NCBI RefSeq assembly: GCF_050726195.1
Contig: NZ_JBOHJC010000010.1
Span: 100,746-124,745, forward strand
From: Methyloceanibacter sp.
GTDB taxonomy: Bacteria > Pseudomonadota > Alphaproteobacteria > Rhizobiales > Methyloligellaceae
Reading direction: 5' to 3'
Length of the DNA: 24,000 nt
Under the pieces are notes generated by a model. It saw nothing but the letters and a program-made list of their open reading frames with translations. It ran no database searches and was not told the DNA's origin. Both the position numbers and the translations under genes were made by a program. Shown here one piece after another: positions 1 through 4,578 of the stretch. Each line of letters opens with the position of its first letter. The stretch's first letter is position 1.

Positions 1-685
1 GCACGACCCCTTCGGGCGGGCGGCGCTGCTCCCAGCCTGCCCGCTCCAGCGCCGGCGTGTCGTCCTCAGCTTCGGGGTAACCGACGCAGAGATGGCCGAT
101 GAACACCCAGTCCGATGGCACGTCGAGGATTGCCGTCATGCGCGAAGGATCGAGGATCGACACCCAGCCGACCCCAAGCCCTTCCGCCCGCGCGGCGAGC
201 CACAACGTGTGGATGGCGATGGCGACCGAGTAATCCAAGGTCTCCGGCATGGTGCGGCGGCCCAGCCCCGAGCCTTGCGCCGTGGCGCGGTCGGCGAACA
301 CGGAGACTTGCACCGGCGCCTCGTCGAGGCCGGCGAGTTTGAGCCGCGCATAGAGCGCGGCGCGGTCCGGCGCCTGCATCTCAAGCGCATCTTTGTTGCA
401 CGCCTGAAAACAATCGCGGATCGCGGCGCGCCGCATCTCGTCCTCCACCAGCACGAAGCGCCACGGCTCCGAGAGCCCGACCGAGGGCGAGAGGCAGGCA
501 ATCGAGATCAGCCGCTCGATCGCGCCTTCGGGCAAAGCCAATCGCTTGAAGCGGCGCACGTCCCGCCGCCACTTCAGCAGATCAAGAAGCCGCGCGCGAA
601 AGCTCGCGTCGAAGGCGGGCGGCTCGGCCTGTTGCCCCTCGCGCTCCGCGAATCGCTGTTCGAATTGTCGGCTGAAGCTGTCCAT
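1..685 (-). CDS. bluB: 5,6-dimethylbenzimidazole synthase (BluB, nitroreductase fold); C-terminal end runs off the window
   Basis: Absent from the ORF track because its stop lies left of position 1. Hand translation of the reverse strand from ATG (complement of 683-685) gives MDSFSRQFEQRFAEREGQQ...LLKWRRDVRRFK...CLSPSVGLSEPWRFVLVEDE...HTLWLAARAEGLGVGWVSILDP...GHLCVGYPEAEDDTPALERAGWEQRRP. The LWLAARAEG-GVGWVSI block and the ELERAGW tail match rhizobial BluB as I remember it. The listed + ORF 92..703 is its antisense shadow. Confidence 0.8.
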   Translation of the reverse strand, partial: MDSFSRQFEQRFAEREGQQAEPPAFDASFRARLLDLLKWRRDVRRFKRLALPEGAIERLISIACLSPSVGLSEPWRFVLVEDEMRRAAIRDCFQACNKDALEMQAPDRAALYARLKLAGLDEAPVQVSVFADRATAQGSGLGRRTMPETLDYSVAIAIHTLWLAARAEGLGVGWVSILDPSRMTAILDVPSDWVFIGHLCVGYPEAEDDTPALERAGWEQRRPPEGVV

Positions 686-808
686 GGGTCCCCACGACCC
701 TAGCACGGATCGGCGCTGGCGCCCGCCTACCGAGGATGTGGCCACCACTCGCCCCCGGTTCCCCCTCCTGGCCGGCGAATTAGCCAGGAATGTATTCTCA
801 ATTTGAGG

Positions 809-875: not shown

Positions 876-1811
876 GTGCAGAGATCGGCGGCAAGTCGGC
901 AGGCAAGCCTTCGGCTCCACCGCGTGCGCGCGCTCCTTTGGGGCAAGGTCGTCGAGGCCAAGCTCCACGCCCTCGACCGCGCCATCAAGGCGAACTTCGA
1001 CCCCAACCAGCCGCGTGTCCCTGCCGGCAATCCCGACGGCGGTCAATGGACAAGCACTGGCGGCGGAAGCGGCTCTCAGAGCGCAAACGAGCGCCTAGCC
1101 CAAGCGCGCGGCGGTCGCCGCCGCGGCAGCGACGCCGAAGCAACACCGGCGCAACTCGCACGCCGCGACATCGCGGAGGCGCAGGCGCGTGCTGCCATTC
1201 GCCGTGTCAACGACATCGATCCGGCATGGAAGCCCCGCGCGAGTCTGACCAGGCCGAATTCGGTAGAAGGTGAAATCGCTCGGGCTGAAGCTGCGCGCAG
1301 CGAGGCGGAAGTGCGGCTGCGCGAGCTTGCTCAGGAGGAACCTACCAGTCTAATTGATGCTTTTCGGCGTCAGCACGGGCTGGACCTTCTCGGCGATCCC
1401 ATATGGTCGCGCGAACAAAACAGCGTGTCCACATGTCAAGTCGATGGCGTTCCGTATCTTGGAGTCAATTCGCAGGCGATCACGTACACCAATTCAGATA
1501 GGACATCAGCGGAACGAGCACGAAGCGTGCTGATAGAAAAACATCCTGATGTCATCAACACTGATGACATAGGCCAGTTTCCCAACGACGCGCTGTTCCA
1601 TGCCGAAGCAACGTGCCTTCTGAGAGCAGCTCGTGCGAATGGCGGCACGCTTGAGACCCGAGTGATTGAAGTAACTGTCGATCGCGTTATGTGCCCGAGC
1701 TGCAGAACTGTTCTTCCGGTCTTAGGATTGGAACTCGGTAATCCCACGGTAAGATTTATTGACCCCCGCGGGTTCACCCGGACGATGCGCGACGGGCATT
1801 GGATCGAATAG
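876..1811 (+). CDS. Polymorphic-toxin-like protein: Arg/Ala-rich N-terminal module plus a C-terminal cytidine-deaminase-fold (HAE...CPSC) toxin domain
   Basis: ORF track 876..1811 (GTG start; GAGGAG at 861-866). FHAEATCLL (H242-A-E244, nt 1599-1607) is followed by VMCPSCRTVL (C273-P-S-C276, nt 1692-1703), the zinc-binding signature of the deaminase fold. Third-position GC drops from about nt 1250 onward. A small ORF follows 9 nt after the stop. Confidence 0.7.
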   Translation: MQRSAASRQASLRLHRVRALLWGKVVEAKLHALDRAIKANFDPNQPRVPAGNPDGGQWTSTGGGSGSQSANERLAQARGGRRRGSDAEATPAQLARRDIAEAQARAAIRRVNDIDPAWKPRASLTRPNSVEGEIARAEAARSEAEVRLRELAQEEPTSLIDAFRRQHGLDLLGDPIWSREQNSVSTCQVDGVPYLGVNSQAITYTNSDRTSAERARSVLIEKHPDVINTDDIGQFPNDALFHAEATCLLRAARANGGTLETRVIEVTVDRVMCPSCRTVLPVLGLELGNPTVRFIDPRGFTRTMRDGHWIE

Positions 1812-1820
1812 GAAAGGTCC

Positions 1821-2294
1821 ATGAGAAAGAGCGGCTATTTCGATTCTCAAGAAATAAAGGGCTGGCCTGATCCGCTAGAGCTGAGGCCTTACTTCTATGC
1901 TCCTCCAGGTCAGGAATGGTTCCACACCGGAGGCAATGACGGTGCGAGCATCGAGGCAGAAGGAGTCGATGGAAGCGATGCGTTGCCGGTAAACAAAGGC
2001 CGCATCGACATTCGTCTCCTGATGTGGGGCATCCCCAAACTCGGCGTCCTCCTGATCTACACGAAATGGGGTGGCGGCTCCCGAGAGACTTATAGTTCGA
2101 AGGGCGACCTGCGACGACTAAGCGAATGGGTGCATAACCTGCACAACACCCCCCTCCCCGTTGGCCTGTTCATCCCCTTCCCCGACGCCTACGAGGCGGT
2201 GAAGGAATTCATCGAGACAGACGGTCAATTGCCCAAGTGCATTGAGTGGGTTGCAAACAAGAACCTGCCGCCAGGCACCTTCCCCGATCCTTGA
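1821..2294 (+). CDS. Putative cognate immunity protein of the deaminase toxin (possibly Imm1-like; family not confirmed)
   Basis: 157-aa ORF with an AGGAAAGG Shine-Dalgarno 9 nt after the toxin stop. Cytoplasmic, no signal peptide. Paralog of 3190..3666. The C-terminal motif AYEAVKEFIETDGQLPKCIEWV resembles the tail I recall for Imm1-type immunity proteins that pair with deaminase toxins. Confidence 0.6.
   Translation: MRKSGYFDSQEIKGWPDPLELRPYFYAPPGQEWFHTGGNDGASIEAEGVDGSDALPVNKGRIDIRLLMWGIPKLGVLLIYTKWGGGSRETYSSKGDLRRLSEWVHNLHNTPLPVGLFIPFPDAYEAVKEFIETDGQLPKCIEWVANKNLPPGTFPDP
2172..2290. repeat. Copy 1 of a perfect 119-bp direct repeat (3' end of immunity gene 1)
   Basis: atccccttccccgacgcctacgaggcggtgaaggaattcatcgagacagacggtcaattgcccaagtgcattgagtgggttgcaaacaagaacctgccgccaggcaccttccccgatcc is identical base for base to 3544..3662 (offset 1372 nt). 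Confidence 0.95.
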
Positions 2295-2301
2295 GGTAGC
2301 C

Positions 2302-2673
2302 ATGAATCGAGGGAGACTCCAGGATATGACGTTAGATCAGTTGATCGAACGGTTCGTCCAGATCGCCCTGGCGCAGGACGATGCGATACTCGACGACCGA
2401 TACTCCGAGTTCAATCGCCTCTACGACCGAATGCTAGATGTCGATCGGGAACTTCGCGCACGTGGTATAGAGGCGCGGCTAGAGTTGTTGCGGCTCTATG
2501 ACCACCCAAACATTCAAGTAAGGCTCAAGGCAGCAACCTCAACACTCGGCGTGGCGCCAAAGGAGGGACGAAGGCTGCTGGAATCCATTGCGGCTTCGCA
2601 ACACTACCCACAGGCTGCCGACGCTGGCATGTTGGTGGACGGACTAGACGATGGAACCTTTAGGCCCACCTGA
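2302..2673 (+). CDS. DUF2019-like small helical protein (immunity-type gene)
   Basis: ATG at 2302 with GAGG 5 nt upstream, 7 nt after the preceding stop. The sequence ...LDQLIERFVQIALAQDDAIL...FNRLYDRM...LYDHPNIQVRLKAATSTLGVAP...AASQHYPQAADAGMLVDGLDDGTFRP matches the DUF2019 pattern as I recall it (FNRL, HPN-QVRL-AA, P-QA--AGM-L--L--G-F-P). Confidence 0.65.
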   Translation: MNRGRLQDMTLDQLIERFVQIALAQDDAILDDRYSEFNRLYDRMLDVDRELRARGIEARLELLRLYDHPNIQVRLKAATSTLGVAPKEGRRLLESIAASQHYPQAADAGMLVDGLDDGTFRPT

Positions 2674-3054
2674 GTGGCGTCCATGACGGGGCTTAGCCTC
2701 CAAGAACTGACGACCGACCAGCTTGTCGGGCGCTTCGTCGAAAATACGCTTGCTCAGGACGAGGCACTTCTTGAAGGTGAGCGAGCCCAATTCAATCGCC
2801 TGTTCACCGAAATGCGCGCGATACTTGAGGAATTAACGGCTCGCAAAGGCGACCAGAGGCGAACTCTATTTCCCTTATACGATCATCCCAACAGCCAAGT
2901 CCGACTAAAGGCGGCAAAGAACACGTTGGCGCTGGCCCCCGATGAGGCGCGCAACGTTATTCAAGCGATCGCAAGTTCCGGCGAGTATCCGCAGGCTGGC
3001 GAAGCAGGCATGTGCCTCCGCAATCTTGATGCCGGGGTCTTTAAGCCCAGTTGA
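2674..3054 (+). CDS. DUF2019-like small helical protein, tandem paralog
   Basis: GTG at 2674 abuts the previous TGA (an alternative ATG is at 2683). By eye about half the positions are identical to 2302..2673, including FNRL, LYDHPNSQVRLKAAKNTL, YPQAGEAGM and LDAGVFKP. Confidence 0.65.
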   Translation: MASMTGLSLQELTTDQLVGRFVENTLAQDEALLEGERAQFNRLFTEMRAILEELTARKGDQRRTLFPLYDHPNSQVRLKAAKNTLALAPDEARNVIQAIASSGEYPQAGEAGMCLRNLDAGVFKPS

Positions 3055-3186
3055 GCGTTCGCCCCACGTCGCAGGCGATCCGACCATACTTCCTTAGTCG
3101 GATTGGAGCTAGGCAACCCGGAGATCACCATTGTCGACAACACTGGCATCACAATCACGATACGTGATGGCAAACTAGTCAGGTGA
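3055..3186 (+). pseudogene. Orphan remnant of a second deaminase-toxin C-terminus (last ~30 codons only; catalytic motifs absent)
   Basis: The frame open from 3055 to TGA 3184-3186 reads ...TSLVGLELGNPEITIVDNTGITITIRDGKLVR*. This aligns with the last 32 aa of the intact toxin, LPVLGLELGNPTVRFIDPRGFTRTMRDGHWIE*. At nt level GGATTGGAGCTAGGCAACCC (3100-3119) matches GGATTGGAACTCGGTAATCC (1725-1744) with only third-position differences. There is no start codon and no HAE or CxxC. Confidence 0.7.
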
Positions 3187-3189
3187 CCG

Positions 3190-3666
3190 ATGCGAAAGTG
3201 GACTGACTTCGACAAGTACGACCACGAAGGCTGGGCAGACCCGCGCGACCTGATGCCCTATTTTTTTGGACCACCTGGCCAGGAGTGGTTTCACACAGGA
3301 GGAAACGACACTGCTGGCCTTTCGGCGGAAGGTCTTTACGGCACGGAGAACGAGGATCACCTGGCAGGACGCAGGGTAGACCTTCACCTGATGATGTGGG
3401 GCATGCCTGGACTGGGCGTCCTATTGCTTTATCGCAAGTTTGGCGGCAGCTACCAGGAGGCCTTCACTTCAAAAGGCGATATGAGCCGACTGCGCGAGTG
3501 GGTGCGTAGTCTGCACTACGATCCCCTGCCCGTCGGCCTCTTTATCCCCTTCCCCGACGCCTACGAGGCGGTGAAGGAATTCATCGAGACAGACGGTCAA
3601 TTGCCCAAGTGCATTGAGTGGGTTGCAAACAAGAACCTGCCGCCAGGCACCTTCCCCGATCCGTGA
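3190..3666 (+). CDS. Orphan immunity paralog (same family as 1821..2294)
   Basis: 158-aa ORF starting 3 nt after the remnant stop. Collinear with 1821..2294 (MRK...GW-DP--L-PYF--PPGQEWFHTGGND...LLMWG-P-LGVLL-Y-K-GG...SKGD--RL-EWV--LH--PLPVGLFIPFPDAYEAVKEFIETDGQLPKCIEWVANKNLPPGTFPDP). The last 42 aa are identical. Confidence 0.65.
   Translation: MRKWTDFDKYDHEGWADPRDLMPYFFGPPGQEWFHTGGNDTAGLSAEGLYGTENEDHLAGRRVDLHLMMWGMPGLGVLLLYRKFGGSYQEAFTSKGDMSRLREWVRSLHYDPLPVGLFIPFPDAYEAVKEFIETDGQLPKCIEWVANKNLPPGTFPDP
3544..3662. repeat. Copy 2 of the perfect 119-bp direct repeat (3' end of immunity gene 2)
   Basis: Identical to 2172..2290. Identity breaks at 3543 vs 2171 and at 3663 vs 2291. Confidence 0.95.
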
Positions 3667-3678
3667 GACGCGAGCGCC

Positions 3679-4578
3679 CTACCCCGCCGCGGCGACCTTG
3701 GTGCGCGCCGTCTCGTGGTGGGTCAGCGCCGTATAGTCGGCCATCAGCGCGCGGGTGATGTCGCCGACCTTGAATTGATAGTCGCCGATCGAGGCGACCG
3801 GCATGACTTCCGCCGCCGTGCCGGTGATGAAGCACTCGGTAAAGCCGCCGAGCTCCTCCGGCATGATCGTCTTCTCGACCAGCTTGATGCCGCGCTCTTT
3901 GGCGAGGCCGATCACTGTGCGCCGCGTGATGCCGTCGAGGAAGCAATCCGGCGTCGGCGTATAGATCACGCCGTCCTTGACGAAGAAGATGTTGGCGCCG
4001 GTGCATTCGGCGATGCGACCGCGCCAGTCGAGCATCACCGCATCGGCAAAGCCCGCCCGCTCGGCGCGGTGCTTCTCGATGGTGCAGATCATATAGAGCC
4101 CGGCCGCCTTGCTGTGGACCGGCGCCGTGGCGGGGTCTGGCCGGCGATATTTGCCGAAGGTGAGCTTGAGCCCGGTCTCGCGCGCGGCCGGGTCGAAATA
4201 GGCGCCCCAATCCCACGCGGCGATGGCGACGTTGATCTTGGTCTTTTGCGCCGAGACGCCCATCTGCTCGCTGCCGCGCCAGGCGATGGGGCGGACATAG
4301 GCGTCGGTGAGCTTGTTGGCGCGGAGCACGTCGCGCGCGGCCTTGTCCAGCTCGGCGACGGAATAGGGAATCGCGAAGTCGAGGATCTCGGCCGATTTGT
4401 GCAGGCGCTGATTGTGCTCGGTCAGCTTGAAGATCTCGCCGTTATAGGCGCGCATGCCTTCGAACACGGCGCTGCCGTAATGCAATGCATGGGTGAGGAG
4501 ATGCACGCGCGCATCCGACCACGGGATCAGCTCGCCGTTGAACCAGATATAGCCGTCGCGCTGATCGTAGGTCGCCAT
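3679..4578 (-). CDS. ilvE: Branched-chain amino acid aminotransferase
   Basis: ORF track 3679..4638(-). I prefer the internal ATG at 4578 (MATYDQRDGYIWFNGELIPW...), which is preceded by GGAGGAG. Class IV aminotransferase hallmarks are present (HYGSAVFEGMRAY, ECTGANIFFV, ITGTAAEV). Confidence 0.9.
   Translation of the reverse strand: MATYDQRDGYIWFNGELIPWSDARVHLLTHALHYGSAVFEGMRAYNGEIFKLTEHNQRLHKSAEILDFAIPYSVAELDKAARDVLRANKLTDAYVRPIAWRGSEQMGVSAQKTKINVAIAAWDWGAYFDPAARETGLKLTFGKYRRPDPATAPVHSKAAGLYMICTIEKHRAERAGFADAVMLDWRGRIAECTGANIFFVKDGVIYTPTPDCFLDGITRRTVIGLAKERGIKLVEKTIMPEELGGFTECFITGTAAEVMPVASIGDYQFKVGDITRALMADYTALTHHETARTKVAAAG

What the first reader, a model, noticed from the sequence alone, without database searches (positions are those of the whole stretch)
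3055..3186. Displaced toxin C-terminal remnant marks a past cassette replacement
The 132-nt open frame ending 3 nt before the second immunity gene encodes ...LVGLELGNPEITIVDNTGITITIRDGKLVR*. It aligns residue for residue with the tail of the intact toxin, ...VLGLELGNPTVRFIDPRGFTRTMRDGHWIE*. The nucleotide differences in the GLELGN block are synonymous third-position changes. The remnant has no start codon and none of the catalytic residues. This is the orphan CT/immunity arrangement known from CDI and Rhs loci. A second toxin allele once sat here and was truncated when the present toxin-immunity-DUF2019 block was inserted or recombined upstream. It shows directly that the locus is polymorphic.
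Basis: seen in the sequence. Interest (0 to 1): 0.65.

Follow-up and report, generated by a model that had tools for sequence, protein, structure and literature searches.

The report
Toxin-gene stub before orphan immunity gene
The stretch is a real leftover of the last ~33 codons of a second, divergent deaminase-toxin gene in front of an intact "orphan" immunity gene, an ordinary by-product of cassette turnover at a bacterial toxin locus, here in a little-studied toxin family.

Summary
Window 3087-3186 is the 3' end of a deaminase-toxin gene. The in-frame part is 3094-3183, and the stop lies 3 nt before the second Imm1 gene. A profile of 118 toxin homologues matches only the intact toxin and this stub in the six-frame window (iE 2e-7). 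A DNA profile gives E 1e-13. The stub lacks the HAE and CPSC catalytic motifs and has no start codon. It is not a copy of the resident toxin: it shares 53% of bases, and 10 of 14 conserved residues use different codons.

Related genomes show at least six architectures at the same bluB/ilvE site. At least 14 of about 70 Imm1 genes carry 3'-anchored toxin stubs of roughly 14-94 codons.

The two DUF2019 genes are not part of the present deaminase cassette. They partner a different toxin that shares the N-terminus and has a 'GYDxHHIVEQ' C-terminus. That toxin is intact at this site in Methyloceanibacter marginalis. The array therefore has three layers, and the stub was probably cut when the DUF2019 cassette arrived, or by an earlier deletion. 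A 119-nt identical tract shows later gene conversion between the two Imm1 genes. This is a known phenomenon in a new family, of modest interest.

The parts
2..700 (-). bluB (5,6-dimethylbenzimidazole synthase), conserved left flank of the locus
   Evidence: NCBIfam TIGR02476 BluB at 260 bits (cut-off 150). The same flank is present in L002, L003, L008, L011, L013, L015, L032, L064, L068 and L077.
876..1811 (+). Intact toxin, 311 aa. It has an N-terminal helix, a PRVPAGNPDGGQW motif, helical linkers and a C-terminal deaminase domain (HAE 242-244, CPSC 273-276).
   Evidence: There are 743 homologues. One is named YwqJ-like deaminase and several carry precomputed PF14437. The Pfam MafB19-deaminase hit is weak. 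The AF2 model has pLDDT 81. Foldseek matches DYW deaminase domains (E 9e-7 to 5e-4), cytidine deaminase and DddA.
1821..2294 (+). imm1, the Imm1-family immunity gene paired with the intact toxin
   Evidence: Pfam PF14430 E 1e-7. It is 92% identical to L002 immB and 68% to imm2.
2297..2305 (+). TAGCCATGA, the last bases of the alternative toxin's 3' end (AAG CCA TGA = K P stop, overlapping the DUF2019 ATG) in front of DUF2019a
   Evidence: The same stop/start overlap occurs where the alternative toxin is intact (L010, L046, L051, L052, L058). Longer alternative-toxin stubs precede DUF2019 genes in L018, L046 and L051. At 8 of 9 bases this is a hint, not a statistical result.
2302..2673 (+). DUF2019a, orphan immunity-type gene of the alternative toxin
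   Evidence: Pfam PF09450 E 6e-29, full length. It is 50% identical to DUF2019b.
2683..3054 (+). DUF2019b (ATG 2683; the mechanical ORF starts at GTG 2674), second orphan immunity-type gene
   Evidence: Pfam PF09450 E 1e-38. PDB 2I9C RPA1889 E 9e-35, aligned from the M at 2683.
3055..3086 (+). Junction segment with no detectable toxin homology. It resembles weakly the sequence that follows DUF2019 stop codons elsewhere.
   Evidence: The nhmmer alignment starts at 3087, with its envelope from about 3076. Post-stop sequences are compared. The resemblance was judged by eye only.
3087..3186 (+). Toxin 3' stub. It covers the last ~33 codons of a divergent deaminase-toxin allele (in frame 3094-3183, stop 3184-3186) and has a 1-nt deletion near 3093.
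   Evidence: It corresponds to the end of the last helix plus the last three beta-strands of the model.
3181..3186 (+). AGGTGA, a Shine-Dalgarno-like sequence for imm2 lying inside the stub's last codon and stop codon
   Evidence: Read from the sequence. Its function is inferred.
3190..3666 (+). imm2, an intact orphan Imm1 immunity gene
   Evidence: Pfam PF14430. It is full length and shares all 44 columns that are invariant in the 17-sequence alignment. The closest relatives are 80-84% identical.
2172..2290 (+). 119-nt tract identical to 3544-3662 (3' ends of imm1 and imm2), a gene-conversion or recombination footprint
   Evidence: The rest of the two genes is 63% identical. No other Imm1 3' end is more than 89% identical to this tract.
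3544..3662 (+). Second copy of the 119-nt identical tract
   Evidence: The independent Logan unitig L001 breaks inside it at 3633.
3679..4578 (-). ilvE (branched-chain aminotransferase), conserved right flank
   Evidence: NCBIfam NF005726 at 506 bits; synteny.

Best explanation
Window 3087-3186 is a non-coding vestige. It is the 3' ~100 nt of a second deaminase-toxin gene whose partner immunity gene, imm2, survives intact next to ilvE.

The locus is a polymorphic-toxin site. A constant N-terminal module (PRVPAGNPDGGQW region) is joined to exchangeable C-terminal toxin and immunity cassettes.

The most likely history has three layers.
1. A deaminase/imm2 pair sat next to ilvE.
2. Its toxin part was removed up to the last ~33 codons when a cassette arrived carrying the alternative 'GYDxHHIVEQ' toxin end plus DUF2019 immunity genes. 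That state is still seen in L010 and L032.
3. That toxin end was then replaced by the present deaminase/imm1 cassette, leaving only about 8 nt of it before DUF2019a.

Old immunity genes are kept because they protect against neighbours that still fire the old toxins. The stub persists because it is the immediate upstream region of imm2 and holds its ribosome-binding site, so deletions that go further would silence imm2. Later, the 3' ends of imm1 and imm2 were homogenised over 119 nt by gene conversion.

Shown: the homology, the divergence, the intact immunity genes, the polymorphism at the site, the recurrence of stubs, the DUF2019/alternative-toxin pairing, and the identical tract.

Inferred: the order of events, the recombination mechanism (homology-facilitated illegitimate recombination), the expression of imm2, and the protective role.
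For: - Stub homology is significant.
- The stub is 53% identical in bases to the resident tail, and 10 of 14 conserved residues use different codons. imm2 is 68% identical to imm1 but 84% to L008's Imm1. imm1 is 92% identical to L002 immB. These are old alleles, not a local duplication.
- The reciprocal array exists in L002: a type-2 toxin fragment and immA lie upstream, and a 14-codon stub of the window's toxin type ('RTMRDGNWTE*') plus immB lies next to ilvE.
- The intermediate state exists in L010 (M. marginalis) and L032: same N-terminus, GYDVHHIV[ED]Q C-terminus, DUF2019, short deaminase stub, imm2-type gene, ilvE.
- The DUF2019 pairing with that toxin recurs in L046, L050, L051, L052, L058 and L060, with the stop/start overlap AAGCCATGA.
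- At least 14 Imm1 genes carry stubs, and every one is anchored at the toxin's 3' end.
- The five genes are tightly packed on one strand with no convincing internal terminator.
- The 119-nt tract is identical within the window, while other Imm1 3' ends are at most 89% identical to it. The chance of this is about 1e-6.
- The same model was published for V. cholerae T6SS immunity arrays, including retention of the 3' end of a displaced effector (PMC5361080).
Against: - No intact toxin matching the stub together with a close imm2 was found. The best tail, P0154, has an Imm1 only 73% identical to imm2. The closest imm2 relative, L008, has a different tail.
- Stub lengths differ between the window (~33 codons), L010 (~17) and L032 (5 or fewer). 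Either the truncations were independent or the stubs eroded later.
- L064, the closest relative by flanking genes (ilvE 89%), has DUF2019b directly next to ilvE with no stub or imm2. The stub-imm2 unit may therefore have been imported already truncated.
- About 10 Imm1 genes have no detectable stub, so a stub is not strictly needed for an immunity gene to persist.
- Expression of imm2 was not tested.
Confidence: 0.8

Rival explanations
1. Toxin loss came first and the new cassette came later. The second toxin was inactivated by a plain 5' deletion, giving an immunity-only 'resistant non-killer' genotype. Only afterwards did other cassettes recombine in upstream. In that case the stub does not mark a replacement event.
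For: L008 carries the closest imm2 relative (84%). L008, L013 and the first stub of L002 have 5'-truncated toxins directly next to bluB, with no other cassette upstream. L017 and L053 have internal toxin deletions. L015 keeps only Imm1.
Against: In the window, L010 and L037 the stub abuts a foreign DUF2019 cassette within 0-55 nt, as expected if insertion and truncation were one event. This does not exclude the rival.
Confidence: 0.25
2. The unit DUF2019b-stub-imm2 was imported already truncated. It entered by ordinary homologous recombination using DUF2019 and ilvE, or toxin and ilvE, as arms. The truncation therefore happened in another genome.
For: The DUF2019-stub-Imm1 order recurs in L010, L032 and L037. 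L064, the nearest relative by flanks, has DUF2019b next to ilvE without stub-imm2. The whole 1250-3600 segment has foreign-looking G+C, 0.55 against 0.68.
Against: Junction positions and stub lengths differ in every genome seen. No donor with the same junction was found.
Confidence: 0.3
3. It arose by local tandem duplication of the resident toxin-immunity pair, followed by deletion of most of the second toxin copy.
For: There are two Imm1 genes on the same strand and a 119-nt identical tract.
Against: Outside that tract the two Imm1 genes are 63% identical in bases, and the stub is 53% identical to the resident tail with saturated synonymous differences. Each Imm1 gene is closer to genes in other genomes (92% and 84%) than to its neighbour at 68%.
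Confidence: 0.02
4. It is a chance resemblance, part of another functional gene (a small ORF, or a read-through extension of DUF2019b), or an assembly chimera formed at the 119-nt repeat.
For: The frame continues directly after the DUF2019b TGA. The phmmer search of 1.84e9 proteins returned only repetitive Ig-like proteins, which reflects the ITITI-like composition. There is a weak Big-like Pfam hit.
Against: The profile statistics argue against chance. The stub is collinear with the toxin/Imm1 gene order and its stop is at the homologous position. Stubs of other lengths and frames occur in other genomes. An independent Logan unitig is 100% identical over 8.5 kb and ends inside the repeat, as expected for a real repeat. 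A chimera inside the repeat would not create the stub.
Confidence: 0.03

Closest known systems
Orphan immunity-gene arrays formed by sequential displacement of effector-immunity modules in Vibrio cholerae T6SS clusters (Kirchberger et al. 2017, PMC5361080)
   Same: An active toxin-immunity pair is followed on the same strand by immunity genes without their toxins. The orphans resemble active pairs in other strains. In that paper's model the 3' end of a displaced effector can be pushed back with its immunity gene. Homology-facilitated illegitimate recombination is the proposed mechanism. Retention of old immunity genes is explained as protection against kin.
   Different: No T6SS genes (vgrG, hcp, PAAR) lie in the 24-kb window or in the syntenic loci. 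The toxin here is a 311-aa stand-alone protein whose export route is unknown.
Orphan cdiA-CT/cdiI and rhs-CT/rhsI modules of CDI and Rhs loci (own knowledge; Koskiniemi 2014 and Jackson 2009 as cited in PMC5361080)
   Same: Displaced 3' toxin fragments with their cognate immunity genes lie downstream of the main toxin gene, with a constant 5' part and a variable 3' part.
   Different: CDI and Rhs orphans usually keep a complete toxin domain plus a piece of the conserved upstream region, so they can be reactivated by recombination. Here only about 33 non-catalytic codons remain. No FHA, VENN or RHS features are present.
Deaminase polymorphic toxins with Imm1 immunity (Zhang et al. 2012, PMC3482391; Iyer et al. 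2011, PMC3239186)
   Same: The toxin has a deaminase fold with HxE and CxxC motifs, followed by an Imm1 (PF14430) gene. Zhang et al. 2012 list Imm1 as the partner of SCP1.201 deaminases.
   Different: The toxin domain does not reach any Pfam deaminase-toxin threshold. The best hit is MafB19-deam at 14-19 bits against a cut-off of 27. The N-terminal module has no Pfam, NCBIfam or PHROG match.
Neisseria MafB toxins with alternative mafB-CT/mafI cassettes (Jamet et al. 2015, PMC4287609; listed, not read here)
   Same: A constant N-terminal domain is joined to variable C-terminal toxins, which include a MafB19-type deaminase. Spare 3' cassettes with immunity genes lie downstream (own knowledge).
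   Different: There is no MafB N-terminal domain or signal peptide here, and the stub is far shorter than a mafB-CT cassette.

Membership tests
Polymorphic toxin system (sensu Zhang et al. 2012) | Related toxins share the N-terminal part and differ in the C-terminal toxin domain | tested here: met
   At the orthologous bluB/ilvE site, the window has a deaminase C-terminus. L010 and L032 have a GYDVHHIV[ED]Q C-terminus behind the same N-terminus (75% identity over residues 1-59). The N-terminal HMM segment 34-75 recurs with other C-termini in many loci.
Polymorphic toxin system (sensu Zhang et al. 2012) | Cognate immunity gene immediately downstream of the toxin | tested here: met
   The Imm1 gene lies 9 nt after the toxin stop. 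The same pairing holds in more than 40 loci.
Polymorphic toxin system (sensu Zhang et al. 2012) | Recognisable trafficking or secretion domain at the N-terminus, or an associated secretion system | tested here: inconclusive
   The N-terminus has no Pfam, NCBIfam or PHROG hit. No secretion genes are in the window. Export was not shown.
Polymorphic toxin system (sensu Zhang et al. 2012) | Stand-alone C-terminal toxin cassettes with immunity genes downstream | tested here: not met
   The downstream unit keeps only about 33 codons without catalytic residues. It is an immunity gene with a stub, not a usable toxin cassette.
CDI orphan cdiA-CT/cdiI | CdiA/CdiB two-partner secretion proteins, FHA repeats, and a VENN-type demarcation before the CT | tested here: not met
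   The toxin is 311 aa with no such Pfam domains. No cdiB-like gene is in the window.
Rhs orphan CT/immunity | RHS/YD repeats and a PxxxxDPxGL core end before the CT | tested here: not met
   No RHS or YD Pfam hit. The AF2 model is helical plus a deaminase domain.
Sequentially displaced effector-immunity arrays (V. cholerae type) | Orphan immunity genes lie 3' of an active pair, each most similar to immunity genes of active pairs in other genomes | tested here: met
   imm2 is 78% identical to the Imm1 of L003, which follows an intact toxin; its closest relative (84%, L008) follows a stub. The DUF2019 genes resemble those behind intact alternative toxins.
Sequentially displaced effector-immunity arrays (V. 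cholerae type) | Location inside a T6SS cluster | tested here: not met
   No T6SS genes are in the window or in the syntenic loci.
Deaminase superfamily (toxin domain from which the stub derives) | HxE and CxxC zinc-binding motifs on a deaminase fold | tested here: met
   H242, A243, E244, C273 and C276 are invariant in 22 homologues. Foldseek hits DYW deaminase domains (top hits E 9e-7 to 5e-4, prob 1.00), cytidine deaminase and DddA 6u08. No Pfam gathering threshold is reached. The stub itself contains none of these residues.
Imm1 (PF14430) | Pfam model above the gathering score | tested here: met
   imm1 scores 33.1 bits and imm2 28.0 bits, against a cut-off of 22.4.

The most novel reading that the evidence does not exclude
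The stub is one visible layer of an undescribed polymorphic-toxin family of Hyphomicrobiales. A roughly 150-aa N-terminal module with an invariant PRVPAGxPDGGQW motif matches no known secretion or trafficking domain. It carries exchangeable C-termini at a fixed chromosomal site (bluB/ilvE) and at other sites. The C-termini include a deaminase paired with Imm1 and a Pfam-less 'GYDxHHIVEQ' domain paired with DUF2019. This would give DUF2019 (PDB 2I9C, function unknown) a role as an immunity protein, and it would point to a delivery route not yet catalogued.
Probability: 0.3. Interest if true: 0.55.

Novelty: new member of a known kind. Interest (0 to 1): 0.32.

Why it matters
The stub itself is a textbook-type footprint of toxin-cassette turnover, so it adds an example rather than a principle. 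Its value lies in what it opens up. It allows a three-layer history of one locus to be read: deaminase, then the alternative toxin, then a deaminase again. Extant intermediates exist in related genomes, and a reciprocal array exists in another lineage. This shows that the 'keep the shield, swap the sword' dynamic known from T6SS, CDI and Rhs loci also operates in a small stand-alone toxin family of soil and sediment Hyphomicrobiales. It also links the structure-solved but function-unknown DUF2019 family to toxin immunity.

Tried and rejected
1. A protein search with the 43-aa remnant found no candidate sharing three 5-mers, so it returned nothing.
2. phmmer of the 31-aa stub against 1.84e9 representatives gave six hits. 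All are long repetitive proteins with multiple matched stretches, which is a composition effect. None is a toxin.
3. A metagenome scan for a back-translated 'TIRDGKL[VI]R stop' tail gave two hits, both chance matches in unrelated DNA.
4. Extending the stub upstream in another frame ('VERSPHVAGDPTILP' against 'VDRxMCPSCxxxLP') was not supported by the protein HMM. Only the 1-nt-shifted ILP codons are suggested by the DNA HMM.
5. I tested whether the Imm1 3' end is a DNA-level recombination site conserved across genomes. Codon identity at conserved residues is only slightly raised there, 0.47-0.57 against about 0.40. The 119-nt identity is therefore a within-genome event, not a family-wide site.
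6. Exact look-ups of imm2 found nothing. The ilvE look-up found only a contig that stops at the repeat.
7. PDB sequence searches with the toxin (single sequence and profile), the Imm1 profile and the alternative toxin gave nothing useful. NCBIfam and PHROGs gave nothing for the toxin, Imm1 or DUF2019.
8. The promoter and terminator scan was uninformative.
9. A shared 'GCGT' motif after the DUF2019 stop in the window, L010 and L037 was considered as evidence of one ancestral junction. The sequences are too short and the similarity too weak to claim this.

Full report
**Anatomy**

The first 4.6 kb of the window hold a compact same-strand array between two housekeeping genes. The genes, in order, are:
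- bluB (2-700, minus strand; TIGR02476, 260 bits)
- a 311-aa toxin (876-1811)
- imm1 (1821-2294, Pfam Imm1)
- DUF2019a (2302-2673)
- DUF2019b (ATG 2683 to 3054)
- the flagged stretch (3055-3186)
- imm2 (3190-3666, Pfam Imm1)
- ilvE (3679-4578, minus strand; NF005726, 506 bits)

G+C falls from about 0.69 to about 0.55 between roughly 1250 and 3600. The drop starts inside the toxin gene.

**The observation**

The frame 3055-3186 continues directly after the DUF2019b stop codon. It reads AFAPRRRRSDHTSLVGLELGNPEITIVDNTGITITIRDGKLVR*. Its last 31 residues align without gaps to the last 31 of the toxin, with 14 identical. The score is 78, against 25.5 +/- 4.0 in 5000 shuffles.

I built a profile from 118 homologues of the toxin. 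It matches 3094-3177 at profile positions 287-314 of 316. In a six-frame scan of the whole window, the only toxin matches are the intact gene and this stub (iE 2.3e-7).

A DNA profile of 30 intact toxin 3' ends matches 3087-3199 with E 1.4e-13. That alignment runs on into the start of imm2, so the stub and imm2 are collinear with a normal toxin-Imm1 junction. It needs a 1-nt deletion near 3093. The first ~30 nt (3055-3086) show no toxin homology.

In the AF2 model of the toxin (pLDDT 81), the retained part is the end of the last helix plus the last three strands. The catalytic HAE (242-244) and CPSC (273-276) are absent from it.

**What the toxin is**

The C-terminal half is a deaminase. H, A, E and the two cysteines are invariant in 22 homologues. 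Foldseek finds DYW deaminase domains (top hits E 9e-7 to 5e-4), cytidine deaminase and DddA. One homologue is named 'YwqJ-like deaminase' and several carry PF14437. No Pfam toxin-deaminase model reaches its threshold.

Zhang et al. 2012 list Imm1 as the immunity partner of SCP1.201 deaminases (PMC3482391).

The N-terminal ~150 residues hold an invariant Q-x-R-x-P-x-G-x4-G-x-W motif (PRVPAGNPDGGQW). They have no match in Pfam, NCBIfam or PHROGs. No secretion genes lie in the window.

**The stub is an old, separate allele**

- Against the resident tail it is 53% identical in bases. Of the 14 conserved residues, 10 use different codons.
- imm2 is 68% identical to imm1 but 84% to the Imm1 of L008. 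imm1 is 92% identical to immB of L002.
- Among 118 toxin tails, the best match to the stub is P0154 (...VGLELGNPTIITTDDDGVVTTIRDGKLIR*), with score 100 against 78 for the resident toxin. Its Imm1 (L080) is only 73% identical to imm2.
- I therefore did not find the exact ancestral pair. Three further searches aimed at it were negative.

**The locus in other genomes**

The Imm1 search and the genome scan gave 72 loci, mostly Methyloceanibacter and other Hyphomicrobiales. I mapped them with tblastn and with HMMs for toxin, Imm1 and DUF2019. At the same bluB/ilvE site I found these states:
- intact toxin plus one Imm1: L003, L011, L081, and L034 (with frameshifts)
- 5'-truncated toxin plus Imm1 with nothing else upstream: L008, L013
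- two Imm1 genes: L002
- Imm1 alone: L015
- deletions running into Imm1: L068, L077
- a toxin with another C-terminus followed by DUF2019 and then Imm1: L010, L032

L002 is the mirror image of the window. A type-2 toxin fragment and immA lie upstream. A 14-codon stub of the window's own toxin type ('RTMRDGNWTE*') then precedes immB (92% identical to imm1) next to ilvE.

About 70 Imm1 genes have their start region present in these loci. At least 14 of them carry short toxin stubs of roughly 14-94 codons. Every stub is anchored at the toxin's 3' end. About 10 Imm1 genes have no detectable stub.

**The DUF2019 genes**

In L010 (M. marginalis isolate) and L032, the toxin at this site has the same N-terminus but ends in a domain with the signature GYDVHHIV[ED]Q. 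DUF2019 follows it directly. The same toxin-DUF2019 pairing occurs in Nitrobacter and other MAGs (L046, L050, L051, L052, L058, L060). There the toxin stop overlaps the DUF2019 start as AAGCCATGA.

Stubs of this alternative toxin precede orphan DUF2019 genes in L018, L046 and L051. In the window, DUF2019a is preceded by TAGCCATGA (2297-2305), 2 nt after the imm1 stop. The DUF2019b ATG is preceded by TCCATGA.

DUF2019b is homologous to the structure-solved, function-unknown RPA1889 (2I9C, E 9e-35). The two DUF2019 genes are therefore best read as orphan immunity genes of a third cassette. They are not part of the present deaminase cassette.

**Most likely history**

1. A deaminase/imm2 pair sat next to ilvE.
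2. The alternative-toxin/DUF2019 cassette came in behind the constant N-terminus. This cut the old toxin down to its tail. L010 and L032 still show this state, with stubs of ~17 and 5 or fewer codons.
3. The present deaminase/imm1 cassette then replaced the alternative C-terminus.

This is the sequential-displacement model published for V. cholerae T6SS immunity arrays. [quoted passage not shown]

Two alternatives remain open. The toxin may first have been lost by simple deletion, as in L008 and L013. Or the DUF2019b-stub-imm2 unit may have been imported already truncated. L064, the nearest relative by flanks, has DUF2019b directly next to ilvE.

**Later recombination**

The last 119 nt of imm1 and imm2 (2172-2290 and 3544-3662) are identical. 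The rest of the two genes is 63% identical, and no other Imm1 3' end is more than 89% identical to this tract. The chance probability is about 1e-6.

Across genomes, this region is conserved mainly at the protein level. The tract is therefore a within-genome gene conversion or crossover. An independent Logan unitig, identical to the window over 8.5 kb, ends inside this repeat. Recombination between the two copies would delete DUF2019a, DUF2019b, the stub and the 5' part of imm2 cleanly.

**Function**

The stub has no start codon and no catalytic residues, so it is a vestige. Its last bases (AGGTGA, 3181-3186) form the likely ribosome-binding site of imm2. All stubs seen elsewhere keep this end. 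I therefore infer that selection for imm2 expression sets the limit of deletion.

imm2 is full length and shares all 44 columns that are invariant in the 17-sequence alignment. Expression and protection were not tested.

**Verdict**

It is wrong or unproven in detail (the composition of the incoming block, the timing, and the CDI/Rhs label). It is a new example of a known phenomenon. The more interesting by-products are the uncharacterised N-terminal toxin module and the DUF2019-toxin link.

Noticed in passing
window 2302-3054; L010 1-1000; L032 5740-6900; L046 12046-13718: DUF2019 (PF09450; PDB 2I9C, function unknown) genes lie directly after a ~270-aa toxin. That toxin has the same N-terminal PRVPAGxPDGGQW module and a Pfam-less 'GYDxHHIVEQ' C-terminus, and its stop overlaps the DUF2019 start as AAGCCATGA. 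This suggests DUF2019 is an immunity protein. Only two unrelated papers mention DUF2019.
   Followed up: partly
window 876-1385; N-terminal HMM hits in L046, L050-L052, L055, L056, L058, L060, L012, L075, L076: The toxin's N-terminal module recurs two to four times per 14-kb locus with different C-termini in Nitrobacter, Rhodopseudomonas and Hyphomicrobiaceae MAGs. It has no Pfam, NCBIfam or PHROG match, and no secretion genes lie nearby. The export route is unknown.
   Followed up: partly
window 2172-2290 and 3544-3662: A 119-nt perfectly identical direct repeat joins two otherwise 63%-identical Imm1 genes. This is a gene-conversion footprint. Recombination between the copies would precisely excise the orphan block. 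A public unitig (L001) breaks inside it.
   Followed up: yes
L002 5756-6013: An 85-aa ORF starts at an ATG and keeps the HAE and CPSC motifs of the deaminase but lacks the whole N-terminal module. It sits directly before an Imm1 gene. It could be a dead stub or a stand-alone mini-deaminase.
   Followed up: no
L017 4661-4939; L053 6378-6989: Toxin genes with internal deletions keep the N-terminus and the tail but lose the catalytic core. This is a second route to immunity-only genotypes.
   Followed up: no
L064 7280-7500: In the nearest relative by flanks, an Imm1 gene is fused at codon ~136 to codon ~97 of a DUF2019b gene that abuts ilvE. This deletion spans the immunity array.
   Followed up: partly
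L007 302-1810: In one short metagenome contig, the Imm1 gene closest to imm2 (80%) lies beside a 502-aa protein with weak or faint precomputed Pfam hits to TIR_2 and AAA_22. No toxin gene is present there.
   Followed up: no
window 1250-3600: G+C drops to about 0.55 against about 0.68 in the flanks. The drop begins inside the toxin gene at about codon 125, so the constant N-terminus has host-like composition and everything downstream looks foreign.
   Followed up: partly
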